The notes under the pieces were generated by a model. It saw only the letters and a list, made by a program, of their open reading frames with translations. It made no database searches and was not told the DNA's origin. A stretch of DNA of 63,807 nt, counting the filler, from Pelomyxa schiedti (lineage: Eukaryota; Protista; Evosea), in the NCBI GenBank assembly GCA_020536535.1. It is 10 parts of 10 records of this genome, joined end to end, with 100 filler letters (N's around TTAATTAATTAA, not from the genome) between each part and the next. Parts side by side here need not be neighbours in the genome. Positions count along the whole stretch, not along the records: positions 1 to 2,102 come from JAHLWZ010002133.1; positions 2,203 to 3,402 come from JAHLWZ010002703.1; positions 3,503 to 4,806 come from JAHLWZ010002605.1; positions 4,907 to 6,187 come from JAHLWZ010002621.1; positions 6,288 to 27,152 come from JAHLWZ010001082.1; positions 27,253 to 28,976 come from JAHLWZ010002304.1; positions 29,077 to 35,834 come from JAHLWZ010001396.1; positions 35,935 to 42,682 come from JAHLWZ010000188.1; 2 more parts are not named here. One strand, written 5' to 3'. Each line of letters starts with the position of its first letter. Position 1 is the stretch's first letter. The translations under genes and the position numbers were made by a program. Below are positions 1 through 49,810 of the stretch, piece by piece.

Positions 1-699
1 GTTGAATGCAATGCCTATGCACTCGAACCATAAGGACTCCTCCAAGATTTGATGGCAGTGGCGAAGCTTTACTTTACAACCAGCATCACAGTGTCTACAA
101 AATTTACTCTTCTTCTGATGAGGAAGGAGACTACTACGAGATTTACACTTTGGAGCCTCCAAATCACCCTTGCCCAGCAGCAAGCCCAAGTTAACAACCA
201 CCAGTGTTCTCTTCCTTATTCCGCCGTAATAATGCAGCCACCACTTGTGATTGGCGCGGTGGACGATAATATCAGTGTTGTGGGTTGCCTCGCTCAGCAG
301 CCACCTGCGCTTCCCAGTCACCACGTCCAGCAGAGAGAAGCTCTGGCTGCGCGCAGCCATCTTCGTGACGACCAGCCGGTCTGGGTCCACCACTGCAGGG
401 GGGCCCTGCGTAGCGCCCAGGCACCAGCTCCCGCGCGACGCCGCTTCCCTGGTCACGCTCATCAGCGTCGGCGACACCCCGAAGGTGTAGTAACTCGCGG
501 AACGGGTCCCCGGCGCGGAAACCACCAGCAGGCCAAAGACGGACTCGGAGCCGGGGCCGAGGCACCAGTCCCACAATGGCGCGGTTGCGAGCCGGGGCAG
601 AGACACGAAGTGGCGCGCGGGGCTCGACGCCCCGCACCGATTGTGGGACGCCATCACCAACGCGAGCAGTTGGTCTCGGGCACGCGGTGCATTGAGCAT
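1..699 (-). CDS. Expanded 'ARDQ..RCG..SP' family member, 3' end runs off the window
   Basis: Open frame absent from the ORF track (no stop before the edge): MLNAPRARDQLLALVMASHNRCGASSPARH...LWDWCLG...YTFGVSPTLMSV...ANHKWW. Paralogous to 790-1303 at DNA level. Confidence 0.75.
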   Translation of the reverse strand, partial: MLNAPRARDQLLALVMASHNRCGASSPARHFVSLPRLATAPLWDWCLGPGSESVFGLLVVSAPGTRSASYYTFGVSPTLMSVTREAASRGSWCLGATQGPPAVVDPDRLVVTKMAARSQSFSLLDVVTGKRRWLLSEATHNTDIIVHRANHKWWLHYYGGIRKRTLVVVNLGLLLGKGDLEAPKCKSRSSLLPHQKKSKFCRHCDAGCKVKLRHCHQILEESLWFECIGIAFN

Positions 700-789
700 G
701 ATGGTTGAATAAGTGACTTTTCGCGGAAGTTAATGATGCAGAAGGAGGGACAAACAAAGTTTTATTTGTGGAAATCATTCATCAGCGTT

Positions 790-1303
790 TCAAGAGGCAC
801 CAGCAGTGAACGAATCAATCTCTATGGGTAATGTGATGGTGCCCAGGAGGAACCCAGTGGAGTCTGTCACGAAAACGGATTGCTTGGTTCTTTTTCGGCG
901 GAAGATGAAGCCTGATTGTGAAATGACCAGAGGTGGTTCAGAAGAAGGAAGGTAGTGCAGAATCCGCAGTGGTTTTGAGGAGTGAAAATCCATCCTGCAG
1001 TCCCATACTTCGACAGCTGAAGAAATCTTTGATCTTTGATCGCAACGTCATTTCCCTGGTCACGCTCATCAGCGTCGACGACACCCCGAATGTGTAGTAA
1101 CTGGCAGAGCGATTCCCCGGCGTCGAAACCAGGAGACCAAGAACGACCTCGGAGTCTGGGCCGAGGCACCAGTCCCACAATGGCGAGGACGACGTGGCGA
1201 GGGCACGCACCAAGTGGCGCGCGGGGCTCGACGCCCCGCACCGATTGTGGGACGCCATCACCAACGCCAGGATCTGTTCGCGTGCGCGCTGTGCAGTCAG
1301 CAT
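790..1303 (-). pseudogene. Internally deleted tandem paralogue of the same family
   Basis: N-terminus MLTAQRAREQILALVMASHNRCGASSPAR...FGVSSTLMSVTRE is joined out of frame (~1040) to the family C-terminus VEVWDC..KPLR..QSGFIF..VTDSTG. The central part is missing. Confidence 0.65.
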
Positions 1304-1425
1304 CAGCCCCGCTCTTTTGGTTCGCTCTTCTGAGAAGATCACCAGGTGAAAAACGATTTCTTTGCCTTCAAAATGGAGTAATTGGTTGGTAATTCTACCT
1401 TAGGACGGGCTCTAGCCAACAACTT

Positions 1426-2102
1426 TCAAGGGAGTGCATTCACACGGAATTGGGACCATAGTGTGTCGAACTCGAAGGTGGCAACATACAAGCCAGTGGA
1501 GTCAGTCACATCAACGCTCTCATATCCATGCTTGTGGAACAGGAACCCTGATGCAGCAACCGCACGAGATTCCACACCATCGTGCCTTGCTGGCAGAACC
1601 CTCAGTGGTGCTGTGGTGTTGTTGCAATCCCAGATTTCAATCATCTGACATCTGTTCTTTGTGATGCAGAACAGAGAACCACTGAGCTGTGACAACTGGT
1701 TTGTGTCACGGCAGAGTATCCTCATGGAACCATCGTGAGCGTACTCTTTTACTTCATACACCGTGTTGGAATTCCTTCCAGTGCGCAGCTCCACAAAGAT
1801 ACCACGCTCACCGTTGGATTTTCTCAATGCAACCGCTGATTCGAAGAACTTGAAGGCTGATGGAAGCCCACACTTGGTCAAACTCAACACTGTGAGGTTC
1901 CTTCTCCTGTATGTCTCGTTGATGTCAACAACCATGAGAATCAGGCCGTGAGGGGCGAAGGAACCTTCAAGAATCACCAGCAATGCTTCATCTGGAACAT
2001 TCTTGTTGAATGAAATAGAGGTGCACTCGTTGCCATCAGCAAACACATCACTCAAAACAACAGCAGCATCGTCATCATCACCCTCACGATGTGCCGATGC
2101 AT
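1426..2102 (-). CDS. Same family, C-terminal half (5' end cut by contig end)
   Basis: Motifs FNKNVPDEAL, VDINETY..LTVLS, QLSGSLFC, EIWDCNN..PLR, SGFLF are shared with 36222-37484 and 48548-49810. Confidence 0.75.
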
Positions 2103-2202
2103 NNNNNNNNNNNNNNNNNNNNNNNNNNNNNNNNNNNNNNNNNNNNTTAATTAATTAANNNNNNNNNNNNNNNNNNNNNNNNNNNNNNNNNNNNNNNNNN
2201 NN
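2103..2202. other. Artificial contig linker N44-TTAATTAATTAA-N44
   Basis: The same 100-nt spacer with all-frame stops recurs at 3403, 4807, 6188, 27153, 28977, 35835, 42683 and 62531. Confidence 0.97.
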
Positions 2203-2262
2203 TATGGTTTATTTTGGGTTTTGCTTACAAGACTCTATTAAGAGTTGGAGGGTAATTTAATT

Positions 2263-3402: not shown

Positions 3403-3502
3403 NNNNNNNNNNNNNNNNNNNNNNNNNNNNNNNNNNNNNNNNNNNNTTAATTAATTAANNNNNNNNNNNNNNNNNNNNNNNNNNNNNNNNNNNNNNNNNN
3501 NN

Positions 3503-5032: not shown

Positions 5033-5712
5033 AAAAATTGCACTGGGCAGAGGAAGGGTGGTGTTGGCCGCAGAAAAGTCGCAGGCAACTCGTGTGTTGG
5101 AGTCCAAACAAGGAAACCCCATCCGTAACAACTTTCGCGACATTTGACATTGATCGATCGTAACAGGTGCAACAAGCCGAAACCAAGTTGATGTCGGGTC
5201 CGTTGTGGCGGTTTCTAATGCCGTACCAAAGTGTGTCGTTTTGTGCTGCTGCGCATTCTATTGGGTGCACAGCACCCCTGGGTGTTCAGTGTAGGAACAA
5301 TCACACAAATTGTTTTTCTGTTGCCAACGGCCCCGATACTTACGGTGCAGTTACGTGTGTTGGTGTGGCAGTCTGTGACGCGGGTGTTGGGGTGCCTTCA
5401 TGGGGGCTTGTTGCCTACATTGGGCCAAAGCGAGGCTGTGCATCGTGCACCGCTCGTGTATGTTTTTCTGTGAGACCGCCAGTGACACAGTTACCAGGCC
5501 ACGGTGCAGTGCATCGTAACTGTTGACACTCTTCACCGGCGTCGGGACAGTCGCAACCCGATGCGTAATTAAAAATCGCGGGTTCTCTGATCAGTAAACA
5601 AATGTCGCGAAAGTTGTTACGGATGGGGTTTCCTTGTTTGGACTCCAACACACGAGTTGCCTGCGACTTTTCTGCGGCCAACACCACCCTTCCTCTGCCC
5701 AGTGCAATTTTT
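5033..5712. mobile_element. Putative MITE / non-autonomous DNA transposon with 114-bp perfect terminal inverted repeats
   Basis: 5033-5146 is the exact reverse complement of 5599-5712. The 452-bp spacer has no recognisable coding content, and both flanks are unique. Confidence 0.65.
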
Positions 5713-5907: not shown

Positions 5908-6187
5908 TCACAACAAGGAGGAATCAGTGTCAATCCAATCGAGGTTGTATGGTGCCTCGATTGTGAGAACAACAACCCCTGAAGTCACCTCAATCACAGT
6001 CACCTTGTCCCCACTGAGTGCAAACAGGAATCCATGGCCACAAGGAAGTTGTGGGAACTTCCTTATATTAAGGTTCATTGCCGTGCAATCCACGTTCCTC
6101 AGTGGTTTTGCAGGGTTGTTGCAATCCCACAATTCAAACCGCAAGCTGCTGAACCACAAGCCAAACAGTGACGAACTCACCTGTGAA
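5908..6187 (-). CDS. Expanded family member, C-terminal fragment
   Basis: SQVSSSLF..FELWDCNNPAKPLR..GHGFLF..VTVIEVTSG. Confidence 0.7.
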
Positions 6188-29076: not shown

Positions 29077-31713
29077 GATGGGCTTATTCCACCCTCGTTT
29101 TACAGTGATAAAGAGCCCGCGTTCACTGTTAGTATGATGGAGCCCCCAGCTTTCCCTTTGCAGTTCCGCAACCTGGTTTACGGTTTGCTTCAGTTTGATC
29201 CCGCAAAGAGGACCACACTCCTGGAGGCGCGCAAGGCAATCGACGACATTGAATCACCCAGTCCATTGGAACTGCTTTCATTTTACTCTCATGTTGTTCC
29301 CTCCTCGAGGGATGCAGGTTTGAAAAAAATAGTCTCACTCCAACCACCTCTAACGAAACACAAAAGGTTGGCTGACAATGAAGGCAATGTGCCAACTTAA
29401 CACTGGGTCAATTCCAATTGCAGAGTGTGTCTCCACTCTGCGTGATGCTCTTCAGGCCACAGCCTCATTTCCACCGGCTTTGTTGCTGCTTCACTTGATC
29501 TGCTCTGCCTCTCTCATTCCACTTGTTGCACTCAATAAAGATGAAAAAAGGGGAATTGCGAGAGTGCTCACAGGGAGGGCATCATTCACATCCACCTCCG
29601 TGGACTTCAAGAGAGCCATCATCAGCCGCCAACCACACAGGAGCACACTCCCTGAGTTGATGATGACTGCACTGTGGTTGAGGTTCCTCAGCCAAGCTGA
29701 TGAGGTTGAGGAAAAACAAAACTCTGTTCAGTTGCAACTGAAGAAAGTGTCATCATTGGATTTGCCAAAAATTTGGGCCACATTATTGCAGAATTGCACA
29801 GCGTTGTCTCGTGAGGATCAGATGTGGAGTGACAAGATTTCAGCATGCTCCTGTTGAGAACATTTCCCTCCCCATTATTCCAGGCAACCAACTAACATTG
29901 TAGAAAGATGGCTGTCATCCACGGAACGAAATGATGATGAAGGCACTGTTGGAGTGGGAGTTGGGACACACAGCCTCTGCAATCGATCTCGTTGCCCAAG
30001 CTTATGCTCATTTCAACTCTGAACAAAAGCTTTCAGGTTAGTTGTCAAGAACTTGAGTTTGCTAACACAACCACCAATCCATCATCCTACATCAGAGGAT
30101 GATATGTGCCTTCAACAGCAGCACTACCTTCCTGGATTGATCTTTTTGTGTGGTCTGTCGTTTGTCTCCCCAAATCAAGAGCAGCTTGGACTCCAGCAGA
30201 TTCCGGCAGAGCTGTTCTGTGCTTTTTCACGTGCAAACTCAACCCCAACTGACGAGTTCTGTGCCTTCTGCAAAGCAGTGCTCGTGTTCAACAGAAACAC
30301 ACCAATTGTCGAGGAATGGCGCGAACTCCTTTATGCAGCAACATTCGGGCTTGGTATCAAAGAATCGAAGCACAAAAATTCCATGGAGGGTGAGGAGGAA
30401 GACCTTAGCGTCATCAACTTCACATGTGACTTGGATGATAATAGGTGCTCAATACAAACATCGTGGGCTTGTATGTTCTTTGTGGCTCTCTGGCTGACTT
30501 ATTCCAGTGACAGCAGCTCAACCCCAATTTTGGATTTATTGTCAAGCAAGACTTGCACAGCTGTGCAACCACCACAGGCTTTCCTACCTGTGTGCACCAC
30601 AATTTTGGCATCTGGCAACCAATTTGGAGACCTTACTAAGGCAGTTACACTGCTGGAGGTAGCAAAGGAAGGTTATCCCTTTGCAAGTGCTTGCCTTGCC
30701 GTGAATTATGAGGATGGAGAAGGTGTTCCCAAAGACCCACACAAAGCATTTACATTGCGTCAGAGGGCAGCTGATGGTTTTTGCACTGCAGGCCTCCGTG
30801 CACTTGCACGCCACTTTGAAGAGGGTAAATGTGTAACCAAAGACCCAAGCAAAGCCGTTGAGCTTTACAAGAGGGCAGCAAACGCTGGTGAGTGTGATGC
30901 AATGATAAGGTTGGCAGAGGCATACGTGACTGGGGACTGTGGCTTGGAAAAGGACGCCACCAAAGCAGTGCCACTTCTAAAGATGGCCGCCAATGCCGGT
31001 GCAACATGGGCACTTCGTGACCTTGCCAGCTTGTATCAGCTTGGTGAGGGTGGTCTTGCCCAGGACACCAACAGAGCCATTGCGCTTTTCAAGAAGGCCG
31101 CTGGCATGGGTGATACCCTGGCAATGTTCGCGCTTGCCAGCTTGTATGAAGACGGCCATGGTGACATCCACGAGGCTGTATTGCTTTTACAGAGAGCTGC
31201 TGAGGCCGGTGAGACTATGGGACTCCACAACCTTGCCATGAAGTACTGGAATGGTGAAGGTGTCGAGGAAGACAGGAAGAAGGCAGTTGCGCTTTGGCAG
31301 AGGGCAGCAGAGGACAGAGATGAGCCAGATCCCAAGGCAATGGTTACCCTTGCGGGATGCTATGAAGCTGGGCAAGAGTTGTGCAAGGACGTCCGGACTG
31401 CAATGAAGTTCTACAGGCTGGCAGTTGATTCTGGCTATGACGATGAANNNNNNNNNNNNNNNNNNNNNNNNNNNNNNNNNNNNNNNNNNNNNNNNNNNNN
31501 NNNNNNNNNNNNNNNNNNNNNNNNNNNNNNNNNNNNNNNNNNNNNNNAGATCCCAAGGCAATGGTTACCCTTGCGGGATGCTATGAAGCTGGGCAAGAGT
31601 TGTGCAAGGACGTCCGGACTGCAATGAAGTTCTACAGGCTGGCAGTTGATTCTGGCTATGACGATGAACCACTCAACGACTTGCTCCACCTACAGCCAGC
31701 AAATACCCCGTAA
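29077..31713 (+). CDS. Protein kinase (C-lobe end) + Sel1-like repeat protein, 5' partial
   Basis: Kinase subdomain XI FRNLVYGLLQFDPAKRTT. Tandem Sel1 repeats such as LAVNYEDGEGVPKDPHKAF and LAMKYWNGEGVEEDRKKAVALWQRAA. Confidence 0.8.
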
Positions 31714-31841: not shown

Positions 31842-33023
31842 ATGGAGGTTGTTGTGTGGGGACGTGACCAGTTGGTTGCATTCGGAGGTGGTGTGATCGA
31901 CAGGTGTGGACAACACAGTGCAGTGCGTTTTCTGGGGCGTCAGCTGTGTGAGGAATTCGGGCGGCGGTGGGTCGTTGGGTGTTGCAGCCAAGTGGGGGCC
32001 ACTCTGACTTGTGAACTCAAGGCAGAGTCATTGCTACAATCGTACAGGTCGGTACCGTTGGTTTCTGCGAGGAGGAAAGTGCATCTGTTCATGGGATTGA
32101 GTGCAACTCTGGGCGTGGTGTGGTGCAGGGTGTGGAGTGGCTCTGATAATGAAGTGATGGGGCCGGCTGACTGCTGGACGGTCGTGCAGACTGTGGGCGA
32201 TGAAAGGTTCTTGGTGACCAACAGTTCTGTTGGAGAGGATGGAACTTATGTAGTTGACAGCAGTGGAGGTGTTGTGGCACAGCTGGGCCTCCTGGAGGGA
32301 TTGGTGCCAGGTTCTGACATCTGGGTAAGTAACCGCAAGTGGCTTGTTGGTGCGGATGTACCGTCTTGGGAGGGTTCACTGCTAAGGGTGTGGAGGATGA
32401 GCAAGGGGATCCCCGTTGGTGCTGGTGTTTGTGTTACCTGCACTGTGCGAATCACTGGAACCAGGTTCTCCCCTTGCAGTCCGGACAGTGATGAGCTTGC
32501 TGTTGTCGGCCAAAGTTCTACCGGTTGTGGATGCCTGTCCTTTGTTGACCTTGATAAGAGTGTTGAATCAGGAGTTTCTGTGGTGACGAGGAAGTACCTC
32601 CTGCCCCAGTCAGATCCATTCGATCTGGTGTGGATTTCCCCTGACACAATCCTCACAATGCACATGGGTAAGCTGCACAACAGTGTTTATAATACCAAGA
32701 CCTGTGAGTGGCATGTGTTCCCTTCCACTTCAGGTGGCGGGTGCCTGGCCCCAATCCCACCTTCACACATCAGTGTAAACCCAAGGCCCGGCAGCACTGC
32801 GACTGGAGTGTACAGGGCCACTGACCTGATTCATCCAGTTTGTTTTTGGGATGGACAGATTACTTGTTCAGATTGCAGAATCTATGCAACCACTGGCTCT
32901 GGAACTACAGAAGCACCCATGGATGTACAGACATCAATGTTGCTGGTGTCAGTGCATGATGCCATCACAGGCCTGAAAATTGGAAGGCTCACAGTGACAC
33001 TGCCATCAATACTTGGTTGCTAG
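31842..33023 (+). CDS. Expanded family member (subfamily 'VIDRCG'), intronless
   Basis: MEVVVWGRDQLVAFGGGVIDRCGQHS..EFGRRWVV..GLSATLGVV..NRKWLV..VDLDKS..VHDAITG. Confidence 0.75.
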   Translation: MEVVVWGRDQLVAFGGGVIDRCGQHSAVRFLGRQLCEEFGRRWVVGCCSQVGATLTCELKAESLLQSYRSVPLVSARRKVHLFMGLSATLGVVWCRVWSGSDNEVMGPADCWTVVQTVGDERFLVTNSSVGEDGTYVVDSSGGVVAQLGLLEGLVPGSDIWVSNRKWLVGADVPSWEGSLLRVWRMSKGIPVGAGVCVTCTVRITGTRFSPCSPDSDELAVVGQSSTGCGCLSFVDLDKSVESGVSVVTRKYLLPQSDPFDLVWISPDTILTMHMGKLHNSVYNTKTCEWHVFPSTSGGGCLAPIPPSHISVNPRPGSTATGVYRATDLIHPVCFWDGQITCSDCRIYATTGSGTTEAPMDVQTSMLLVSVHDAITGLKIGRLTVTLPSILGC

Positions 33024-33085: not shown

Positions 33086-33847
33086 TCACAGGATGTTGCA
33101 GCCACCACCACCATTCTTTGAGGTCGATGATGACCTCTTGGCAGGTGGGTAATAGACATTATAGGCACACCTGATTGCCTCGTCAAACACATCCTTGAGG
33201 CCCTTCTGTGTCAGTGCGGAGCACTCCATGTACTTGATGGCGTTTATCTCCTTGGCCTTGGCCAGCCCCTGCTCGTAGGTTATGGGAGTGGCTGCCTTTA
33301 CCTCGGCGTGTGGGGCCTCACTGAAGCCATCGCGGAGGTCGGTTTTTGTTCCCACGAGGAGCCGCATGGCCTTGGGGCAATGATGGGACATCTCAGGGTA
33401 CCACTTGCTGCTCACGTTCTCGTGCGACGATGGGCTGATCACTGAGAACACAACAAGGAACATGTCTGTCGATATATATGAACGAGGCCTCTTTTGGAAG
33501 AGAAAGGGAGCAGTTTGAGATGCTAAGAAGGAGGTTGTGTATGTTTGCTGTGTGAAGGTGATAGACACGCGTTTTACACGTTTTCATTTGCTACTGGTTA
33601 TTATTAGACAAAAGTGTTTGGCAATAACGGGAAAAGAAACAAATAAACAGAATACAATGTTGTCATCGTCCTCTGTGTCCATGAATGCTACATTGTACAC
33701 CCCGCCATCAATCAAGCGGTTCGAAATGCATTCATAGAACGCAGTGGGCACGTAGTCTGTGGGAAAAGCGTTTGTAGTGTAGCTGATCAACATGCACGTC
33801 TTGCCCACGCCACTGTCCCCAACAACAACGAACTTGATCGCCTGCAT
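33086..33847 (-). CDS. Atypical Rac/Rho-family GTPase, one intron, CaaX
   Basis: [43 protein letters not shown]|[43 protein letters not shown]. Confidence 0.9.
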
Positions 33848-33894
33848 TCAACGAACTTGCGGTTTGTGATTGAATTTCGGAAGGAGGTTGTTTT

Positions 33895-34536: not shown

Positions 34537-35834
34537 TCACAATAAACCCCTGACACGCCAGCTAAATTCCATGCCGGATCTGGGGAAAACCAGAGAAAAC
34601 ACAAAGTGGCCTGATGACTCCTCAGTCACTTCCAAGTGGTAACTGGAGGTGTGGACCAGGAACCCTGACTGGGCATACACCTCAGAACATCCATCCCTGT
34701 GTTTGATGGTCCTAAGTGGCTTTGAAGTGTCGTTGATGTCCCAAATCTCGCAGCAGTGTTTCCTTGACAAACAGAGCCGGGAGTGATTGAGCTGTGTCAC
34801 TCGCAGAAAATCTCCTCTGGAACCTGTTGCTATTTCTGCTGCGTTTCCTGTGCCCTCTTCAATCTCTGACAGAACACTACCAGGACCAATCACCGTCACA
34901 CCAATGAACGAACGCTGCCCATTTCTCTTCTGCAGTAGAGAAACTTCTGTTGAAGAAGTGAAACTTAAGTTTGTGGAACTCCTCACAACCAGAGTTCCAT
35001 AGTTGTATGTCTGTGGCACATCAATAACCAACATCTCCAGCTCGTTTTTGGAAAAGCACAATCCAAGGAGCACTTCATCTTCGTTGAACTTGTTGAAGAA
35101 AAACTGCCCCCCAGCGAGAAGTGGGGACTTTAGGGGAACAGCGACTCTGTGGAAAATCCCCTCGTTATCACTTTCCTCTCTGCTATCCACTTTGCACATT
35201 TCGGCAATGACCAGCTCCATCCTGCTGGACTTACTGCTGCTTCCGCTGGCATCGCAACTGTGATGCGTGATAGGCAGCCACCGCCAATACACAAGCCACT
35301 TCCCATTGGCAATAACATCACAGGCACACACAGTCCTCCCCCACAGAATCCTGTTCCTCTCAGGATTGTCAATGTTCACAAGCAACTGTGACCCGCGATG
35401 CACGCGCCCGTTGTATCCCATAATGGCGTAGATGCGCGACCCGCGCTCGCGGGGCACTTCCTCCGGCTCCCAAGCGTGGTTGTTGTCAATCACACGCCCG
35501 TTGCACGATAAGGAAGAAGGATTCACAGGCCTCCTCCTCAGTCCCCTTGTGATTCCAAGCAAAAATGGAGAAAATGCCAAAGATAGAACTGTCATGTGGG
35601 AGTTGAAATGTCTGAGGCCAACTTCGACGTCGATTTGCACGTCGGTGGCCGGCGAGCAGCCGCAGAGCTCCCACAATTGGAAAAGCACGGCGCTGGTCAG
35701 GGCCGAAGAGGGCGGCGACGGCCGGGCGACTGCGGCGATCGCCGTGAGCGAGCCGCACCGAGGGTGGGAGGCCATCGCGAAGGCGAGGAACTGGTCTCGG
35801 GCCAGGATGGGGATTATGGGAATGCAAGTTCCCT
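34537..35834 (-). CDS. Expanded family member, intronless, start off contig
   Basis: ILARDQFLAFAMASHPRCGS..ANGKWLV..FFFNKFNEDE..IDVPQTY..EIWDINDTSKPLR..QSGFL. Confidence 0.8.
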
Positions 35835-36221
35835 NNNNNNNNNNNNNNNNNNNNNNNNNNNNNNNNNNNNNNNNNNNNTTAATTAATTAANNNNNNNNNN
35901 NNNNNNNNNNNNNNNNNNNNNNNNNNNNNNNNNNTGAAGCACGTTGTTGGGGGCTCTGGGTTCTTGTTTGCAGTGAGTGACAAGGAGATACAGGTGATGG
36001 AGGCGCTCTCTGGTTCCGTTCTCATGTCAATCGAACCCTCCTCATTTGGCAGTCCCCAAATAGATCCAGCTGTTTCTCTGTTGTGAGGAGCCTCAGACAG
36101 AACTCGAAGTTCGATTGATCAATTCTCCGAGAAGGAGAATTCAGGGTGTCAAACAACCGCGAAACATTGATTTTATTTGATTTGTTCCCCGAAAGAAGGG
36201 ATGTGGTTGGTAGGTTTCGAG

Positions 36222-37484
36222 TCACAACAAAGAGGCCAACCTGTTGATTTGATCAACAGCGCACGTGACAACAAATGTGAGGAGAGGAGTGCCGGTTAAT
36301 GCCTCAATCACAGTGACCTTGTTGCCACCCGCGAGCACGAACAGGAAACCACTCCCCCCAACAACTTGTTGGATGCCACTGTCACCACCACCCCCGGTGA
36401 TGCAGACTGACCTCAGTGGGTGTGCTGTGTTGTGGCAGTCCCACAGTTGGTATTCGTTTCTGCAGCACACACAGAACAGTGAGGAACTCACTTGTGACAA
36501 GTTGTTGCATTCTGTTGCCAACTGCGTGGCTCCGCCAGTTGATGTCTCAACCAAGAGGAGAAGCAAAACCCTTTGGAACTCCTGGGAAAGTACGTGCACA
36601 TTGACAACATAAACAACCTCACCACTCAGCCTCCTCAAGATAATGGCCTCTTGGTACAAATTCCTCGTGGGAAAGGAACACCTTGTTGAGTTCAGAACAA
36701 CCAAGTCATTGGTCTCGTGTGTCTGAGCAACATCAATCAGTGCAAAATGTGCTTCACCCGCATAAGCACCCCATGCCAATGCCTCATCTGGATGTTCCTT
36801 GTCCACAACTACATCATAGATACCAGGGAATGCATTCCTGTAACAAGTAACCACAACAGGCGTTTCCCTAGCTTCCGGTGGCTTCTCAGGATTCTGGAAC
36901 TCTTGCGGGATGGCAGTGATGCTCAGCGTCTGTTCCCCATTGAAAAACGGAATCTCCCGAACAATGAGCCACCTCCCGTTGGCAGCATACGCGCAGCGGT
37001 ACTGCTCCCCCAGCACGCACACACTCTCCTCATGCCGGTCAGGATGCACAAGCAGCAGCTCCCTGGAGAACGTCCGCCTCAGGACCCTGTGCAGCAGATA
37101 CACCCCAGGACCCAGCCAGTGCGCGTAATCCTCGCCCACGTGAACGGCACGCGGCTCCTGCGTGACGCCCAGCGTGAAGCGCGACACACCAAAGCACACG
37201 CTCACGCGGACGTTGTCGTCGCCGTTGCTCGGTGGGTCCGTTGCAACGACGAGGCAAAGGGACGCGTCGGGCGCCGCCACGAAGCTGCGCCACATTGACA
37301 GGACCAGCGGGGAGTTGGAGACGAGCAGCCTGGCCGGGCTGTTGCACCCGCACCGCGGGACCGACGATGCCAAAAGGGCGAGAAACTGGCCACGGCTGGT
37401 GTTTATGTACGACGTGTACGTCGTTTCTGTTGGTTTTTGTGCACAACGTTGTTGTGGCGGGTATTTGTCTGCCTGCTGTTGCAT
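36222..37484 (-). CDS. Expanded family member, intronless, 420 aa
   Basis: SRGQFLALLASSVPRCGCNSPAR..FGVSRFTLGV..ANGRWL..HPDEAL..SQVSSSLFC..LWDCHN..PLR..SGFLF. Confidence 0.8.
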   Translation of the reverse strand: MQQQADKYPPQQRCAQKPTETTYTSYINTSRGQFLALLASSVPRCGCNSPARLLVSNSPLVLSMWRSFVAAPDASLCLVVATDPPSNGDDNVRVSVCFGVSRFTLGVTQEPRAVHVGEDYAHWLGPGVYLLHRVLRRTFSRELLLVHPDRHEESVCVLGEQYRCAYAANGRWLIVREIPFFNGEQTLSITAIPQEFQNPEKPPEARETPVVVTCYRNAFPGIYDVVVDKEHPDEALAWGAYAGEAHFALIDVAQTHETNDLVVLNSTRCSFPTRNLYQEAIILRRLSGEVVYVVNVHVLSQEFQRVLLLLLVETSTGGATQLATECNNLSQVSSSLFCVCCRNEYQLWDCHNTAHPLRSVCITGGGGDSGIQQVVGGSGFLFVLAGGNKVTVIEALTGTPLLTFVVTCAVDQINRLASLL

Positions 37485-37868
37485 TGTCTGTTGATTGCCA
37501 ATTTGAATTCGTTATTGTGATGACTCCCCAAAAAGGGAATCACGGAGTCAGCCCTGAGAAACCCTCAGAAGTCGGACAACTTCTGGGAATTCAATGGCAC
37601 ATGATGCTGTGCTGTGCATCATGGTTCATAGTGAATAATTGGAATTCATGAGAGACAGGGCTTATAAGCGACACCACTGTCACCACAAACTCCACCAGAT
37701 CAATTAAAATAAATAAATACTTTGTTCCTCCTTATCTCGCTACAAACATATTTGTCACTCCCCGTTAGGGACACAACTCACACTATCGTTTTTTTACTGT
37801 AAAAAGTTTTTGATGCAGTGTGGCAAAAAGACTACCTCCTGATGGGGGAGACTTTTCGCTTGTGAGTG

Positions 37869-38454
37869 TCACTCAGAGTTACTGTTGCTGCTACTGCTGC
37901 TCTCAATGTCACTGCTACTTTCCCCACGGAGAGGGTCAAACCCCAGTGTCTTGATGGTGATCTTCACAGCCAGTGGCGTGGCTGTGGCCCAGTTCAGCAT
38001 GTACTTCTTGGCAAAAGAGGCTGTGATTTGTGGAAAAACACGCAGGATCATCTTCCAAAATCTTGATTCAACTTCATTGTGGCCCCATGAGACATTCATT
38101 TCTGCAACCTGTAGTATGGTATACCACTTTTGTTGTTACTTGTTGGCTCATACCTCAGACAAAGTGACATTAAACTCGTGGATTATCCACTCTGCACAAC
38201 TTGTTTTGTTGACTAAAATCACCAGAGCAAGGAGGTAGTTGCACTTCGCCTTGACTTGTTGCTCATTCAAATGGAAATGTTGAAGGACCCACTTGACTAC
38301 TTTTCCAGATTTCACATAACAATGAGAGTGGGCCAAAGCCTCCAGGAAATCTGCTTCTGATAAGTCACCAGAAGCAACAAGTTGTTTGGCTTGGGAGATG
38401 TTTGCCTTGGAAAAAATGAGTTGGCAGGCTGCCCTTTTTGTCTCAGAGGAAAGT
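37869..38454 (-). repeat. Near-identical duplicate of the 3' end of the ankyrin-like gene (39081-39660)
   Basis: Same exons and intron (LSSETKRAACQLIF..FNVTL|VAEMN.SWGH..SNSE*) with scattered substitutions. Confidence 0.85.
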
Positions 38455-38554
38455 NNNNNNNNNNNNNNNNNNNNNNNNNNNNNNNNNNNNNNNNNNNNNN
38501 NNNNNNNNNNNNNNNNNNNNNNNNNNNNNNNNNNNNNNNNNNNNNNNNNNNNNN

Positions 38555-38808
38555 CAACGACGAGGCAAAGGGACGCGTCGGGCGCCGCCACGAAGCTGCG
38601 CCACATTGACAGGACCAGCGGGGAGTTGGAGACGAGCAGCCTGGCCGGGCTGTTGCACCCGCACCGCGGGACCGAGGATGCCAAAAGGGCGAGAAACTGG
38701 CCACGGCTGGTGTTTATGTACGACGTGTACGTCGTTTCTGTTGGTTTTTGTGCACAACGTTGTTGTGGCGGGTATTTAACTGCCTGCTGTTGCATTGTCT
38801 GTTGATTG
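38555..38808 (-). repeat. Near-identical duplicate of the 5' end of gene 36222-37484
   Basis: Matches ~37244-37497 with a few SNPs (MQQQAVKYPP vs MQQQADKYPP). Cut by the N100 gap. Confidence 0.85.
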
Positions 38809-39080
38809 TCAATTGAAGATCGATCTGGAAGTTTCAAGTTTTCACACTCTCAGGCCTTGAAAATTAATGAGGCATGTTGTGCTGTACAGCCGACCACTCG
38901 AGTCGAGATGAACATCTTCACCAAGATTTTGAGAGACCACGTGATCATTTTTCGCGGAATGAGAATTTCTCTCCAATCAAACGGCATCCTACACTGTTTG
39001 TTCGTTGCCACCATGGTGGTGAAGTCGTTTTTTCACTTTAAGTTTTTGATGGGGTGTGGGGGACTTTTCTCAAGTGACAC

Positions 39081-41405
39081 TCACTCAGAGTTACTGTTGC
39101 TGCTACTGCTATCAATGTCACTGCTACTTTCCTGACGGAGAGGGTCAAACCCCAGTGTCTTGATGGTGATCTTCACAGCCAGTGGCGTGGCTGTTGCCCA
39201 GTTCAGCATGTGCTTCTTGGCAAAAGAGGCTGTGATTTGTGGAAAAGCACGCAGGATCATCTTCCAAAATCTTGATTCCACTTCATAGTGGCCCCATGAG
39301 GCATTCATTTCTGCAACCTGCAGTATGTTACCACTTTTGTTGTTACTTTTGGCTCATACCTCAGGCAAAGTGACATTAAACTCGTGGATTATCCACTCTG
39401 CACAACTTGTTTTGTTGACTAAAATCACCAGAGCGAGGAGGTAGTTGCACTTCGCCTTGACTTGTTGCTCGTTCAAATGGAAATGTTGAATGACCCACTT
39501 GACTACTTTTCCAGATTTCACATAACAATGAGAGTGGGTCAAAGCCTCCAGGAAATCTGCTTCTGATAAGTCACCAGAAGCAACAAGTTGTTTGGCTTGG
39601 GAGATGTTTGCCTTGGAAAAAATGAGTTGGCAGGCTGCCCTTTTTGTCTCAGAGGAAAGTTGAATGTTGAAGGACTTGAGCAAAAGCAGTACTAGGTGCA
39701 GGCTTGTACGGCAAGGAAAAAGAAAGAAGCTCACTTGGGATTGAACCACGTGCTCACTGACGTTGTGCAGTGTGGCATGGGAAAGAAACCACTGCAACCC
39801 TCTGACTCCACAGTTTATGTCATGGCAGATGTTGCTGAAAGCCCCTCCTGCTGCGCCAGGCATTGCATTCACAGAGTCCATGACATGGAACTCTGCTTCC
39901 AACCAGTCTGCAACTGATGTGTTGTTGCTGCCAAGTGCCTTGACCAGGCACTCTCTAAGTTGGTTGTTGGTGAGGGGTGGTGGTGTTACTTTGGGTAACA
40001 GGAAAAGCAGCACCGACACACTGTCTTTCTCGTTCCCACATGCTTTGATGAAGGTTTCAGGTGTTATGAGCGCACCAATGGTTGGGAACTGTTTCAGTGA
40101 CCACTCAAGGAGATTGGGGTCTGATAAGTGGCAGCACCTCTCAAGAAGTAAACCCATCTCTCTTGGATCAGGGAAATTTCTGACCCACCACCTGACTGTT
40201 TCAGAATCAAGATGTGACTGATCCAAAGGGGAAAGATCTATGGACAATAAGGATTTCTCCTTCAGCCAGTCACAGCACTCCTTGATCTTGTTGAAGGGGC
40301 TTTTCAGAAAGGCATAGATATCCGTCTCCTTGAACTCTGGATGTCCATAATCTTCATAATGGAACCAGTCTGCACACAGCTTCATAACTTCCAAGCTTGT
40401 GCTGAAGAAAAGCTCCCCTGCTGTAGGTGGCTCCTCAATAGGACCAGATGACCTCGACCTTATGCAAGCAGTAACAGCACAAGTGGATGATGCCAGCCAC
40501 TTAACAACATCAGAGTGGCCCTTGAGCACGGCAACAATGAACGGCACCACGAGCCCCATCCCATCCTTGTCAACACCAAATGTGGATATCACCCACTTGA
40601 CAGCTTCCAGGTGTCCACCACGGCACGCCTCGAACAGCAGGCTGTGTGTCGTTACTGTTCCAGGCACCTCCCTGATTTCCTCAGCAATTTCTCTCCTTCC
40701 ATAGACAGGCCACCTGAGTGCACCACCCCTCCATGGTGCGTCCCCACTCTCAAAGAGCTCTTGTGCAAGCCCCATGTGTCCTCCTGTAATTTTCACAATT
40801 GATTAGCCTGAAGGTCATGAATGGTAACCCTGAACCCATCTCCCCTTTCATTTTATTTTATTATTATTTATTATTATTATTTTTTTGACATAATAATAAG
40901 AATTAAATTTATGTGGTTACTTTCATGCTAAAGTGTGAGACACTTTGACAATAATATTATTATTATTAACATACATACCAGCACACAGCCCCTTGAGCAC
41001 CGCGACGCACTCCCTCACATTGTTCCTGGTAACTTTGTTTCTGAGAATCCACTCGATGCACCTCGTGCTGCCCGCCGTCGCGGCGCACTGGAGCACCGCG
41101 TACCGCGACGTGCGCTCGGTCGGCGACCCCCCGCCGGCGATCCTGCCGGTCTCCTCGCTCAGGGCCGACGCGCCCATAATGGCCCGGCACGCCCTGGGCA
41201 CCAGCGGGAACAGGGCCTCGGCCACCGCCATCACCCACACGCAGTCGTCGGCGGGGACGGCCGGGCCGGCTTCGGCGATCCGGGCCATCACGGGGGAAGG
41301 GGCGACGATGTGGTCCCAAACGACGCGCGACACCATCATGGTGTGTGCAACTGCACCGCCCTGCTCCCCTTGATGTAATCGTGTGCGAGTGTGGTGGCTG
41401 TGCAT
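39081..41405 (-). CDS. Degenerate ankyrin-repeat protein, 3 exons
   Basis: VSRVVWDH..AAT.GSTRCIEWIL..LKGLCA|GGHMGLAQEL..ACRGGHLEAVKWV..KGHSDVVKWL. Introns at ~40786-40979 and ~39319-39359. Confidence 0.7.
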
Positions 41406-41570
41406 CTTTTCTTGATGGTGTGTTTCACACCTTCCCAGAACAACGATGAACGAACACATCAGAGAACCAATCTTACTCGCTGCCAAAAGTCCTCCCAGTG
41501 ACTGTGATGGGATGCTTACCAAGGTGATGATTGTTCGCTTCAGCACAGAGTCAGTATTGTGATAGACAAC

Positions 41571-42682
41571 TTAAAAAGCAGGCAGTGAGAGTACAGCAAG
41601 GAGTGAACAGGAGGGAACATCAACAATTGTGATTTGTGAGGGGCTTGCCTTCACAGCTACTATTCCTTGCCGTCTGCACATTGGCACAATGAAGACAGCT
41701 CGCGCTGAAGGAACTGACATGAAAGGCCTGGTGAGTTCAGGGAGGAGATAAAAGTGATTATCTTTCGTGGGAGGGAGCTCAGACGCCACAATGACGTAAT
41801 CACTGACACAACTGAGACTCAGGCACCGGTGGAACACGGACTGTTGGGTTTCTTGAGTAGTTATCACCAAGTCAGTACCACGGCATTCTTCGGTGAATAC
41901 AGGGTTGGTGAGGAGTAGGTTGTAGACCAAGAAGTCTGGAAACTGCAATTTGTTGGAAAATACAACACCATTCTGCTGAATACTTTTCTCCAGGTCTAGA
42001 TACCAAACATGAGCACAAACTGGGTGCCAATCCACAGTGCCAACCAAGACCACAGTGTCACTCTGCAAACAAGAACGGCCACCCCACAGGAAGCCACTTG
42101 GCAACCTCGGTAGCAGCACGGCCGCATCGCCAACAAGTGTGCCATTTGTGACTCTCCACACCTCCATCACTTGATTCTCGTCACCTGATCCAGCCACAGA
42201 AACAACAACCAGCCACTTGCAGCTGCACACAGTAAGCTCTGATAGCTTCCTTCCAGGACATGACAGAACCCTCAAAGTGTGGAGCTCCCCATCCATTAAA
42301 TGCACAGAATTGCTATCCCACATTGTGACATAAATTCCCCCTCCAATGCTCCCCACTATCTCCCCATCAGTGGTCCTGCAGTGCACACCCCTGCTGTAAT
42401 CATGGCACCCGCAGTACACTGTGCCCCCAGTGCATGACACCCCCATCCACACATTCACCCTTCGCGACTTTCCACCCGCACTCAGATCAAGCGTGGTACC
42501 AATGTGCCTTGCAGTGCATACCACCCAGGACCTGCCAAACTCGCACAAAGAAGCCAGTGACCCCCTCATGAGTCCCACTGGGCTACGCACTCCGCACCTG
42601 TCAACAATGGCCCCAGTTGCCAGTGCAACGAACTGGTCACGGGCCGATATAACTCCCTCAATAACGGCTGCTTCTGTTGGGG
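41571..42682 (-). CDS. Expanded family member (subfamily 'IVDRCG'), start off contig
   Basis: ISARDQFVALATGAIVDRCGVRSPV..LCEFGRSWVV..GVSCTGG..SCKWLV..LDLEKS. Confidence 0.75.
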
Positions 42683-43155
42683 NNNNNNNNNNNNNNNNNN
42701 NNNNNNNNNNNNNNNNNNNNNNNNNNTTAATTAATTAANNNNNNNNNNNNNNNNNNNNNNNNNNNNNNNNNNNNNNNNNNNNCACAGCTGATGGCGTGGG
42801 CGCCGGCGCTGTTGGGTAAACCTTCACCCCTTCACTCGGTATGTTGCTGCTGTTGTTCCCAACACCGCCGCTCGACGCCTACACATACGTGGGTGCCGAC
42901 ACCAACAGCGACACCAACAGCCTTTCCTGATCGTTTTCGAAAAAACGGAGACTGGACAAATCTGTTGCTGTAGACTGAGGCAGAGTACTGTTGTTGTTGC
43001 CGCCCCTTTTTACTTCCCCCTATTGTTGTACTACCCTGTTGTTTGGTTTCCCGTGACTTTCCAGCCAGAACAGACACCCTTCGATTAATCACGCTCCTGT
43101 GCTGTTTTGATAGTCTCGCCCACAAGGAGACACATTTTCCTTTCGTGCCCACTTC

Positions 43156-43367
43156 CTGAAGTACTTCAGACAGCCGCCCCTTGGGGCGGCTGTTTTGCAC
43201 ATGCTTTTGATAGGACAGCCGCCCAAAAAAAAGGGGCGGCTGTTTTTACAGGAATTTGACAGGCCAAAAAACAGCCGCCCTTTGATCCAGATATGATGCC
43301 CGGGGAACCCGGGAAAACGCCCCCTCTTCCCAGGAATGCCTGGGAAGCAAAAAAAAGTGTTTCCCGG
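43156..43367. repeat. Cluster of palindromes and nested hairpins with 5 copies of ACAGCCGCCC
   Basis: CTGAAGTACTTCAG; ACAGCCGCCCC-TT-GGGGCGGCTGT; ACAGCCGCCC-A8G-GGGCGGCTGT; ACAGCCGCCC; CCGGGAAA..CTTCCCAGG-AATG-CCTGGGAAG..TTTCCCGG. Confidence 0.8.
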
Positions 43368-43676
43368 CCAACACTGTGTGGAACTCAGACTACTCCCACA
43401 ATTTGAAGTCCAGGATTCTGATTTTTATTCGAGGAGGGTGGAAGAAAGATCTTCAACTTTTATGCAAGTGGACATCATTTGCTGTCGTAAGGCAGTTTTT
43501 TCACTGTTTTCACCCGCAAAGCGTGGTGCTGTTTCCATCAAACATTCCTTTGATTGGAGACAGTTTTTCAAAAATCAAACCAATTCCTGCTTTTTATCTG
43601 TCTTCTTTCTTCTTTCTTTTCTCGCACAATCATCATCAAAACAAAATTTCCGTGAATGAAACCATAGTTTTCATCC

Positions 43677-46280: not shown

Positions 46281-46358
46281 TGAAGTGTTCTGTTTGTGTC
46301 CAACGAAAAAACATTTTCGCCTTTGGAATTTATTTGGGTTCATCAAAGCACAAATTAG

Positions 46359-47412: not shown

Positions 47413-47506
47413 TAGTCTCCAAGCTGTCACAGTACACAAACAGGTCCAATCTTTGAGGGGAAAAAACAGCAATTCTTTGTTTCTTTTGGACCAAACACTG
47501 TTACAA

Positions 47507-48456
47507 TTACAGACCATCAGAACAACACCGGAACCCAATTTCATAAAACATGAAGTCATCTCCATGTGTTGTAACACTGGACTGACATGTTCTGGCCTCT
47601 GCCCAGTACCTTCCTTTGAGATTCCCATGAAAGTCAGTGGTCCCACCATCTCGCCTTATCGTCCATTCCTTTTGATTTTTTTTAGAATTTTTGAAATTAC
47701 CCAGCAAAAATAAATCTATCACGTACCTCCATGTTTCCAAATAGATCATACACTCCGAAATCCTTGTAAGTGCAGTCCGGTTTCGCGCCGGAAGGAGTAG
47801 CTTGGTAGAGCCAGTGTTCATGGTCACCAGAAGTGTCACACATCCAATCTCCAAGGCCATGTACACAGTCTTGAAGTGTGTCATATGTCTGTTCAGAAAT
47901 TAACAACAGGAAAAATTCAGGAACAAAACAAAAGGAAACGAGTTAAATTAAAGAATTTGTACCTGTTGAGTTGTTGAACTGCAACTTCTCGGCCACCAAT
48001 TGAGCTTGGTCTGGTTGTATGTGCGCCAAACCTTGTTGTCATTGCACATGCCAGGCACCCACACCGACCCATAAGGATACGGCATCCCATCCGGCCCTCC
48101 ACACACATAATTAAACTCATCATCATAACCTATTCCTATCATCACGAAAAGTTCCCAAAAAAAAAAAAAAAAGGAAATGGCCAGGCATAAACTGGGAAGA
48201 TGCCAAAGGAAAACATACAGAGCCTCTTGCCGGCCTCTTGGCACCAGTCCCTAGACATGTTGTATGTGTACATTACAAGTGGGAAGGCCCCCTCGATGTT
48301 CGGTGCCTCGTAGACGTCCATGCACCACTCCCTGGCCACACCACCAAGCGTGGCGCTGAATCCCATCATTCCGCTGCTGCACGTCGGCGTCCCACAAACC
48401 ATAACCCCGCATCCCATAATAACCACCGCCATCGCGCCTATGGCAACCCGCGCCAT
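47507..48456 (-). CDS. Secreted FGE-sulfatase (SUMF1-like, C-type lectin fold) domain protein
   Basis: Signal-like N-terminus; CMDVYE, WCQEAGKRLC|YDDEF, YPYG, FGVYDLFGNME|EW, KGRYW, IGFRCC. Confidence 0.8.
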
Positions 48457-48547
48457 TGGTGTTTTCTTTTTTTTTTTCTTCTTCCTTTTGGCCTTCGACG
48501 GAAAAACGAAAAAAACCCGTTGGAACCGACACTTTGAAGCCAAGTCG

Positions 48548-49810
48548 ATGTCCCAACCCCCAAAAAAGCGTCGTCCCCCTGTGACAGTATCACCAACAAC
48601 CAAGTTCTCAGCCACCGACCAGTTCCTTGCTCTGCTGATGTCATCCCATCATCGCTGTGGCGCCCGCAGCCCCGCTGCCCAAGTGTGCTCCCTCGGGTGC
48701 CTTATGCACCAAATGTGGTGCGACTGGGTCCTGGCCACGTCCACCACCGTTGTCCTCGTAATCGAGCCCGAGGGCTTCCTGACCGGCGACTCACCTGTCT
48801 CAGTCTCGTTCGCAGTGTCCCGCACCATGGGATTCTCCACTCGCGGAGAAGTCGTGGTGGACCTGGCGTCGGGCAGGCCGTGGGTCACTCCAAACGTGTC
48901 ACTCAGCACGCGGTACGGAATGTTTGGGTGCACCGCCTTGTGGATTAGCAGGAGGAGAATGGGCTGTGCACAAGGGAGCGATGAATTCGAGTCGCCGGTA
49001 CAAATGTGCAGGAGCCTGTTTGTGGCGGACGCAATTAACAGCAAGTGGTGCATAGTATCTTCCTGTGAGGTGCCTGGGGCTATCCCGGGGGCTAGTGCTA
49101 ACCTCAATGCCGTGTCCATGACAATAAGCTACATTAAGGACTATACTGCCTATATGGTGGGCGAAGATGGCATCACTTCTGTGAGTGTTATGATGCCACC
49201 GAATGATGGCGGGGAGACTATCACAACAAGGTTGTTCTTGAACAAGCTTGTTCCAGACGAGGCATTGATTTGTTCCTCTCGTGAAATGAGTACGGCTGTT
49301 ACATTCATTTTATTTGATGTACAAAAGACATTCCAAACCAAGAAGCTCTCTGTATTGGTATCAACAGTGACCAGAGCAACTACTGTTTTGTTTCACGTTG
49401 CACTGGTGATGAGGAAAAGTACCAGTCCTGCCGTTTTCGTTGTGCTGTCAGCATCTTATTTCACGGTGCTTCACGTTAACCCCTCAACTGGGAAAAGCAC
49501 AAAGATATCATCAACATGTTCTGACTTGTCACAGCTGAGCGAATCTGTGTTCTGCATTGGGAGGGCGGGTGAAATGTCCTATGAGTTATGGGATTGTTAC
49601 AACACTGACCGACCCCTGAGAAATGTGCGGAGCAGTGATCATTTCAACCAAGTGCTGTGCGGGGGTGGCTTCCTGTTCGCTGTGAGGAGAAGCGAGAAGA
49701 AGATTATTGTCTTCGAAGCATCATCCGGGCGTGTTGTAGTTACCCTTGACGTCTGGATTCTGGCGCCAAAAGGCTACAGTATCGCCCCATCTTGTTCGAT
49801 TTTAGAATAA
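48548..49810 (+). CDS. Expanded family member, intronless
   Basis: SATDQFLALLMSSHHRCGARSPA..FAVSRTMG..NSKWCI..FLNKLVPDEAL..FDVQKTF..QLSESVFC..ELWDCYNTDRPLR..GGFLF. Confidence 0.8.
   Translation: MSQPPKKRRPPVTVSPTTKFSATDQFLALLMSSHHRCGARSPAAQVCSLGCLMHQMWCDWVLATSTTVVLVIEPEGFLTGDSPVSVSFAVSRTMGFSTRGEVVVDLASGRPWVTPNVSLSTRYGMFGCTALWISRRRMGCAQGSDEFESPVQMCRSLFVADAINSKWCIVSSCEVPGAIPGASANLNAVSMTISYIKDYTAYMVGEDGITSVSVMMPPNDGGETITTRLFLNKLVPDEALICSSREMSTAVTFILFDVQKTFQTKKLSVLVSTVTRATTVLFHVALVMRKSTSPAVFVVLSASYFTVLHVNPSTGKSTKISSTCSDLSQLSESVFCIGRAGEMSYELWDCYNTDRPLRNVRSSDHFNQVLCGGGFLFAVRRSEKKIIVFEASSGRVVVTLDVWILAPKGYSIAPSCSILE

What the first reader, a model, noticed from the sequence alone, without database searches (positions are those of the whole stretch)
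1..49810. Massively expanded intronless family with a conserved N-terminal 'ARDQFLAL..SH.RCG..SP..LW' module: candidate substrate-receptor repertoire
Seen: about 11 copies or fragments on 6 independent contigs (1-699, 790-1303, 1426-2102, 5908-6187, 23407-24200, 31842-33023, 34537-35834, 36222-37484, 38555-38808, 41571-42682, 48548-49810). Full copies are about 370-430 aa and intronless while neighbouring conserved genes are intron-dense. They share a ~45-aa N-terminal module and spaced motifs (GVSxTL, NxKW, NKxxxDEA, QLSxSLFC, WDCNxxxxPLR, SGFLF) with very divergent sequence in between. Tandem copies, two subfamilies and pseudogenes indicate birth-and-death evolution. Inference: a constant short helical adaptor plus a variable beta-propeller-like body resembles F-box or SOCS-box cullin substrate receptors. 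This may be a diversified recognition/ubiquitination system, for example against ingested microbes or endosymbionts. The function is untested.
Basis: partly seen in the sequence, partly recalled or inferred. Interest (0 to 1): 0.8.

Follow-up and report, generated by a model that had tools for sequence, protein, structure and literature searches.

The report
Amoeba propeller repertoire with mobile tag
The anaerobic amoeba Pelomyxa carries hundreds of very divergent genes for predicted ring-shaped binding proteins that all start with the same small unnamed tag; a related tag sits on repeat proteins of a few small-genome bacteria, and it likely plugs these proteins into the cell's protein-destruction machinery, which is untested.

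Summary
Observation confirmed: 12 copies or fragments on 6 contigs (the 11 listed plus one), five as uninterrupted 370-432-codon frames. All 42 named homologues are Pelomyxa schiedti hypothetical proteins; 631 clusters at 50% identity match the family profile (459 at E<=1e-10), median identity 24%. AlphaFold2 (pLDDT 89) gives a distorted beta-propeller of about seven blades behind a three-helix N-module that is predicted to fold alone (pLDDT 94). Loops of one propeller face are hypervariable, those of the other face conserved (entropy 3.6 vs 2.5, p=3e-5). New here: the N-module belongs to an unnamed mobile 'HxR[LC]G' module that also sits on ankyrin, LRR and RCC1 proteins in a few bacterial genome bins and one eukaryote-like contig (HHalign 96%; an HMM of those modules hits 76 of 155 Pelomyxa proteins, 0 shuffled). 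It is not a canonical F-box, SOCS/VHL box or WDxR DCAF by sequence tests. Best reading (0.5): a receptor repertoire for a cullin-type ubiquitin ligase that docks through an undescribed box. Partner, targets and any link to symbionts or prey are unshown.

The parts
1..699 (-). copy, N-terminal 233 codons, cut by the contig end; N-module 559-681
790..1303 (-). broken copy: codons 1-88 (N-module 1163-1285) joined out of frame to the last blades; about 230 codons missing
   Evidence: (against P0034)
1426..2102 (-). copy, C-terminal 224 codons, 5' part cut by the contig end
5908..6187 (-). C-terminal 92 codons, cut by the contig end; 88 residues identical to P0004
23407..24200 (-). weak divergent remnant in two frames, no N-module detected
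31842..33023 (+). full copy, 393 aa, divergent clade; N-module 31860-31982
34537..35834 (-). near-full copy, 431 codons, start cut by the contig end; N-module from 35802 downward
   Evidence: (E 4e-10)
36222..37484 (-). full copy, 420 aa; N-module 37275-37397
38555..38795 (-). N-terminal 80 codons, 98.5% identical to the previous copy, cut by a scaffold gap; N-module 38586-38708
41571..42682 (-). near-full copy, 369 codons, divergent clade, start cut by the contig end; N-module 42519-42641
48548..49810 (+). full copy, 420 aa (415 residues identical to Pelo_16253), the modelled one; RNA-run contigs cover three parts of it without a skip
48611..48733 (+). N-module of the modelled copy: helix, HxRCG loop, short helix, helix
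48740..49783 (+). predicted beta-propeller body (residues 65-412), about seven blades

Best explanation
This is a Pelomyxa gene family of several hundred divergent members, each predicted to pair a constant three-helix N-module with a beta-propeller whose loops on one face are hypervariable, and it likely works as a repertoire of substrate receptors in which the variable face would bind different target proteins and the N-module would dock them onto a cullin-type ubiquitin ligase. Shown: the family, its size, the conservation contrast, and the sequence kinship of the N-module to a module on ankyrin, LRR and RCC1 proteins elsewhere. Predicted: both folds and the assignment of faces. Inferred: one shared docking partner (about 0.75) and that it is a cullin ligase (about 0.5 overall). 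The adaptor (Skp1, Elongin C, DDB1 or a cullin directly) is open, and the module would be a new kind of box rather than an F-box or SOCS box.
For: Size: 631 clusters at E<=1e-3, 459 at 1e-10; 42 of 42 named hits are P. schiedti. Fold: pLDDT 89.2, pTM 0.89; propeller matches at Z 15-17, rmsd 4-7, 250-320 aligned, none standing out. N-module alone: pLDDT 94, three helices; entropy 2.12 vs 2.92 in the body. Face contrast over 163 copies: BC+DA loops entropy 3.63, AB+CD loops 2.52, p=3e-5; BC+DA is the top, peptide-binding face by convention (PMC13587420 passages). Mobility: 17 non-Pelomyxa modules, 12 within 80 residues of the C-terminus, on ankyrin, LRR, RCC1 and other bodies; HHalign 95.7%; their HMM hits 76 of 155 Pelomyxa proteins, all at the RCG motif, 0 of 155 shuffled. 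In those 17 the last helix fits the Cul2-box pattern in 7 (1.3 by shuffle) and a recalled F-box first-helix pattern in 3 (0.02). Precedent: Orientia ankyrin proteins with a short C-terminal F-box bind SCF1 (PMC4148323 passages); F-box and BTB families expand by birth and death in chlamydiae (PMC4209131 abstract).
Against: No BC box in 135 Pelomyxa or 17 other modules; Cul2-box pattern at chance in Pelomyxa (7 of 135 vs 5.5); recalled F-box first-helix pattern 0 of 135. No Pfam F-box, SOCS or WD40 match in 92 members at E<=0.05 or in 12 other modules. WDxN in 104 of 163 copies, WDxR not among the eight commonest forms. Within Pelomyxa the module was seen almost only before this propeller (159 of 162 hits; the set was collected with the propeller profile). 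The model has a strand (13-17) in front of the module, so the module may be an insert that caps the propeller. The four seed modules outside Pelomyxa were picked with a pattern chosen to resemble the motif, so part of the HHalign score is by construction. The module is rare in the bacterial groups sampled (2 of 64, 4 of 400, 2 of 400, 2 of 22, seeds included). Positive selection is not shown: the one pair measured has dN/dS 0.45 over 88 N-terminal codons.
Confidence: 0.5

Rival explanations
1. The N-module is a docking tag, but for a machine outside the cullin ligases (for example a trafficking coat, a chaperone or p97, or a cytoskeletal or membrane anchor), so the family is a recognition repertoire with another output.
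For: All evidence for mobility and for one variable face fits any shared partner; every cullin-box sequence test fails or is at chance in Pelomyxa.
Against: The Leu-Pro-started last helix is enriched for cullin-box-like patterns in the 17 outside modules; short tags at the ends of ankyrin, LRR and propeller proteins are the known layout of cullin receptors (PMC3355856, PMC4148323 passages).
Confidence: 0.27
2. The N-module is only a folding cap on the conserved face of the propeller, and the family grew by tandem duplication and drift without one shared partner.
For: 159 of 162 modules precede this propeller; a strand precedes the module in the model; the module leads into the conserved face; tandem and broken copies are common.
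Against: The module is predicted to fold alone and relatives sit on unrelated folds; hundreds of clusters keep about 400-codon frames and fixed motifs at 24% identity.
Confidence: 0.14
3. The genes are of mobile, viral or symbiont origin (or contamination) rather than a host repertoire.
For: Intronless in a genome with 7.43 introns per gene (PMC8887013 passage); GC 0.49-0.56 against 0.43-0.46 for intron-rich contigs; the module also occurs in bacteria and on a contig with histone, MORN and chromo genes.
Against: Copies lie between spliced host genes on the same contig (GT-AG joints on both sides of 48548-49810); no transposase or viral neighbour was seen; all 42 named hits are from the amoeba; two motif scans of viral contigs for close forms found nothing.
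Confidence: 0.09

Closest known systems
F-box/WD40 receptors of SCF (FBXW7, beta-TrCP; PDB 2ovr among Foldseek rows) and expanded F-box families
   Same: Short helical N-terminal module plus beta-propeller; large lineage-specific expansion with tandem and broken copies.
   Different: No Pfam F-box or WD40 match; the module has a 9-residue HxRCG loop after its first helix, and its F-box-like helix comes last with no further helices before the propeller; propeller similarity is generic (TM about 0.37).
SOCS-box and VHL-box receptors (ASB, WSB, CRL2 receptors; PMC3355856)
   Same: Three-helix tag of about 40 residues that ends in a proline-capped amphipathic helix; relatives sit at the C-terminus of ankyrin and LRR proteins.
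   Different: No BC box in 152 modules tested; no LPxP Cul5 box seen; Cul2-box pattern only in the non-Pelomyxa modules.
DCAF receptors of CUL4-DDB1 (DDB2, CSA; PMC3938054)
   Same: N-terminal helix-loop-helix followed directly by a propeller whose opposite face would bind substrate.
   Different: WDxN instead of WDxR; no WD40 repeat match; the module also occurs C-terminally on non-propeller proteins.
Ankyrin-PRANC (short F-box) proteins of Orientia and poxviruses (PMC4148323)
   Same: The bacterial relatives of the module have the same layout: ankyrin repeats plus a short C-terminal helical tag.
   Different: No Pfam PRANC or F-box match in the bacterial proteins scanned; the HxRLG loop is not part of the described motif as far as the passages read show.

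Membership tests
F-box proteins (SCF) | F-box profile match | tested here: not met
   0 of 92 members at E<=0.05; 0 of 12 outside modules; N-module profile finds nothing in PDB sequences at E<=10
F-box proteins (SCF) | F-box three-helix fold | tested here: inconclusive
   49-residue model, best Z 3.9 (rmsd 2.7, 42 aligned) to an unrelated protein; too small to rank folds
F-box proteins (SCF) | First-helix Leu-Pro-x-Glu pattern (recalled) | tested here: not met
   0 of 135 Pelomyxa modules; 3 of 17 outside modules
F-box proteins (SCF) | Binding to Skp1 and Cul1 in cells | not testable with these tools
   needs a binding experiment
SOCS/VHL-box proteins (CRL5/CRL2) | BC box (S,T,P)LXXX(C,S,A)XXX-hydrophobic | tested here: not met
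   0 of 135 and 0 of 17 in the 20 residues before the RxG motif (consensus)
SOCS/VHL-box proteins (CRL5/CRL2) | Cul2 box hydrophobic-PXX-hydrophobic-XXX-hydrophobic | tested here: inconclusive
   7 of 135 in Pelomyxa (5.5 by shuffle); 7 of 17 outside (1.3 by shuffle)
DCAF/DWD proteins (CRL4) | N-terminal helix-loop-helix before a propeller | tested here: met
   helices 22-31, 43-47, 50-62 then propeller in the model; layout only, no sequence match
DCAF/DWD proteins (CRL4) | WDxR motif | tested here: not met
   WDxN in 104 of 163; WDxR not among the eight commonest forms at the one conserved WD
DCAF/DWD proteins (CRL4) | Binding in the DDB1 double-propeller cleft | not tested
   stand-in DDB1 frames were found but the single complex job went to other partners
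WD40-repeat proteins | WD40 repeat profile | tested here: not met
   no Pfam WD40 match in 92 members; only weak PDB-sequence hits to WD40 proteins, best E 0.014
Beta-propeller fold | Ring of four-stranded blades | tested here: met
   predicted model; Foldseek at least 500 rows at E<=0.001, VIA Z 16.9 (rmsd 7.2, 316 aligned) to 14.6

The most novel reading that the evidence does not exclude
The HxR[LC]G module is an unnamed class of cullin-ligase docking box, distinct from F-box, SOCS/VHL box, BTB and DCAF H-box, that is shuffled onto propeller, ankyrin, LRR and RCC1 recognition domains in microbial eukaryotes, copied by host-associated bacteria, and amplified to about 3% of the Pelomyxa proteome as an innate recognition repertoire.
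Probability: 0.33. Interest if true: 0.87.

Novelty: new variant of a known kind. Interest (0 to 1): 0.7.

Why it matters
If the module is a ligase docking box, it adds a receptor class that domain databases miss, explains several hundred hypothetical proteins (up to about 3% of 19,876 predicted proteins, if all 631 clusters are from this species) in an amoeba that lives with obligate endosymbionts, and flags a possible host-mimicry tag in uncultured bacteria. Even if the partner is something else, a conserved 45-residue mobile module with one pull-down between it and its function is directly testable.

Tried and rejected
Complex prediction of the N-module with stand-in Skp1 and Elongin C: no answer, score 0.01 against a mark of 0.34, alignments not used, partner fold uncertain; no evidence either way. 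Fold searches with the isolated module: no F-box, SOCS-box or DCAF chain among the 50 rows shown of 487 at Z>=2, no Foldseek row; uninformative at this size. Atlas: Pelomyxa proteins not held; a bacterial module gave 27 of 30 feature hits to unnamed short clusters (0.92-0.93) and no named family above 0.83. RSV fusion-protein hit at E 2e-4 with a 16-row profile vanished with 92 rows: rejected. Extra domains in long public models (macro, kinase/Roc, eIF4E, E2, Sel1, MBOAT, Med22, ankyrin) differ each time, and P0092 and P0093 visibly join neighbouring window genes: treated as gene-model fusions. Methylamine dehydrogenase and prolyl oligopeptidase lead the VIA lists but tie with other propellers and cover only their propeller chains or domains: no enzyme claim. 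Motif scans that found nothing: viral contigs, genomes with a narrower pattern. Of 11 loci, 6 had no in-frame motif and 1 lay in a 41-codon frame; these 7 were dropped. No RNA contig lay on 31842-33023: no evidence of silence. No whole genome was held, so copy number, intron status and dN/dS could not be measured genome-wide. Earlier scan notes held nothing on this family.
Full report
1. Observation. The window is ten contigs or scaffolds joined by N spacers. All 11 listed pieces are present, on six of them, and a twelfth fragment lies at 35937-36086. A family HMM run on 1946 six-frame pieces gives 13 pieces at E<=6e-5 and nothing else below 0.2 (five copies are in the alignment). Eight pieces carry the N-module. 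Five are uninterrupted frames of 369-431 codons. One copy (790-1303) has lost about 230 codons and changes frame, one (23407-24200) is a weak remnant in two frames, and the others are cut by contig ends. One pair is 98.5% identical across a gap and may be alleles.

2. Organism, size, expression. The 48548 copy is identical over 415 residues to Pelo_16253 of Pelomyxa schiedti. A 16-row profile matched 631 clusters (50% identity) at E<=0.001, 459 at 1e-10 and 183 at 1e-30; the best 150 were shown. Names were seen for 42 of the 155 proteins held, and all 42 are P. schiedti; the 481 lower-ranked clusters were not seen and may include other organisms. 32 of 154 proteins hold two long copies. 163 near-full copies have 24% median identity and form many deep clades, with copies from one model often sisters. 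The published assembly has 19,876 predicted proteins and 7.43 introns per gene, and its main text has no 'intronless' or 'gene famil' (PMC8887013, passages; supplements not read). Contigs from two RNA runs (one sample, one study) cover 48989-49437, 49472-49659 and 49613-49787 without a skip, while neighbours show GT-AG joints (8 joints not shown). Loose ends that I recall as a template-switch adaptor sit on the 5' side of the + strand for this gene and on the opposite side for the minus-strand neighbour, a hint of sense transcription; contigs cannot prove strand or exclude DNA. One 250-base RNA contig with 4 differences lies on the 34537 copy.

3. Fold. AlphaFold2 on 92 sequences gave pLDDT 89.2 and pTM 0.89: a strand (13-17), helices 22-31, 43-47 and 50-62, then about 28 strands. 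Foldseek and VIA return only beta-propellers, Z 14.6-16.9 with rmsd 4-7, none standing out: a distorted, generic propeller. No Pfam family passes in 92 members; two propeller families touch one member each at E 0.0014 and 0.04. I grouped the strands into seven blades from their order, with the conserved WD ending strand C (no coordinates were available). On 163 copies the 14 BC and DA loops have median entropy 3.63 and the 13 AB and CD loops 2.52 (p=3e-5); length spread 3.05 vs 1.37 (p=0.05). By convention DA and BC loops form the top face, where peptides often bind (PMC13587420, passages). So one face is variable and the other, which the N-module leads into, is constant.

4. The N-module. Alone it is predicted at pLDDT 94, pTM 0.72, three helices. 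It is more conserved than the body (entropy 2.12 vs 2.92), with near-fixed Gln, Ala, Arg-Cys-Gly and Trp, and it tolerates long inserts after the RCG loop. Following a recalled lead, I scanned bacterial and archaeal genomes for F-x-M-G-x-H-x-R-L-G-x-x-S-P: 11 loci, 5 in frame, 4 in long frames: ankyrin proteins in bins titled Rickettsiales and Coxiella sp., one protein without a family, and an RCC1 protein on a contig with histone, MORN and chromo genes. HMM rounds added more. Tallies, seeds included: 2 of 64, 3 of 301 then 4 of 400, 2 of 400, 2 of 22, and 1 of 251 in the phylum of the misbinned contig, the seed itself; two genomes were not scored. Of 17 such modules, 12 lie within 80 residues of the C-terminus, on ankyrin, LRR, RCC1, Lcl and unknown bodies. 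HHalign with the Pelomyxa module gives 93.6% and 95.7% over 31 columns. An HMM of 12 outside modules scores 76 of 155 Pelomyxa proteins at 5 bits or more, all at the RCG motif, and 0 of 155 shuffled. The seeds were chosen by a resembling pattern, but the later hits were not, and several share positions outside the pattern. I put homology at about 0.85.

5. Is it a known box? BC box: 0 of 135 and 0 of 17. Cul2 box: 7 of 135 (5.5 by shuffle) and 7 of 17 (1.3). A recalled F-box first-helix pattern: 0 of 135 and 3 of 17 (0.02) (consensus from PMC3355856, passages). WDxR is not met, although helix-loop-helix plus propeller is the DDB2/CSA layout (PMC3938054, passages). No Pfam or PDB-sequence match names the module. 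So it works like a receptor box by layout but is not a member of these families by the sequence tests.

6. Mechanism. Shown: family, size, conservation contrast, mobile module. Predicted: folds and faces. Inferred: each member would bind its own targets on the variable face and dock through the module on one shared partner, most likely a cullin ligase (0.5), because a short terminal tag shuffled among ankyrin, LRR, RCC1 and propeller domains, expanded by duplication and echoed in host-associated bacteria, is the pattern of F-box, SOCS and PRANC receptors (PMC4148323, passages; PMC4209131, abstract), and the outside modules end in a cullin-box-like helix. Rivals: another shared partner (0.27), a folding cap with drift (0.14), mobile or foreign origin (0.09). 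Nothing here links the family to symbionts or prey, and the one dN/dS value (0.45, 88 codons, one copy broken) shows no positive selection.

7. Novelty. Eight literature searches (listings and abstract starts only, apart from the papers named above and passages of PMC12816148) found no description of this family or of the HxR[LC]G module; subscription journals are not covered. Earlier scan notes gave only analogies in other genomes: one on a virus-encoded Elongin C led me to stand-in sequences, one on a foraminiferan mobile module is a parallel that I did not test. Verdict: real, large, undescribed in the sources searched; a new variant of the receptor-repertoire kind, with a fair chance that the module is a new class of ligase box. 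Interest 0.7.

Noticed in passing
window 39357-41570 (-), and 37872-38454 (-): Ankyrin-type gene with long open frames whose start (about 41520-41370) looks by eye like a degenerate N-module (first helix, an RC, a last helix with W); neither module HMM scores it. If real, the module fronts a second body type in Pelomyxa.
   Followed up: partly
window 24260-25219 (+): Uninterrupted 320-codon frame with an HExxH motif (HEYFH) and a later glutamate, like a zincin metallopeptidase (motif reading recalled); no Pfam or PDB-sequence match. It abuts the broken copy on the other strand.
   Followed up: partly
window 35935-42682: Duplicated block across a 100-N gap: 37244-37503 / 38555-38814 (98.5%) and 37843-38454 / 39055-39660 (95%); tandem duplication or two alleles in one scaffold.
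   Followed up: partly
window 31327-31447 / 31548-31668 and 5033-5146 / 5599-5712: Exact 121-base direct repeat across a scaffold gap and an exact 114-base inverted repeat; probably assembly or whole-genome-amplification artefacts.
   Followed up: no
window 33089-33847 (-): Rac-type small GTPase gene in long exons; DNA-run contigs show close paralogues.
   Followed up: no
window 29900-31700 (+): Sel1-repeat gene similar to the Sel1 part of P0117.
   Followed up: no
window 43000-43500: High-copy repeat: summed contig depth about 800-1000 against 24-50 beside it in two DNA runs.
   Followed up: no
L172 (G004:C19:1-13331): Contig in a bin titled Opitutaceae that encodes a histone-fold, a MORN and a chromo-domain protein beside the RCC1 gene with the module; looks eukaryotic or giant-viral and misbinned.
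   Followed up: partly
G001, G205, G122, G554: Small-genome bacterial bins with 5, 4, 2 and 5 module-bearing genes on ankyrin, LRR or unknown bodies.
   Followed up: partly
L007:334-624 and L003:283-750: Skp1/Elongin C-family genes on giant-virus-type contigs.
   Followed up: no
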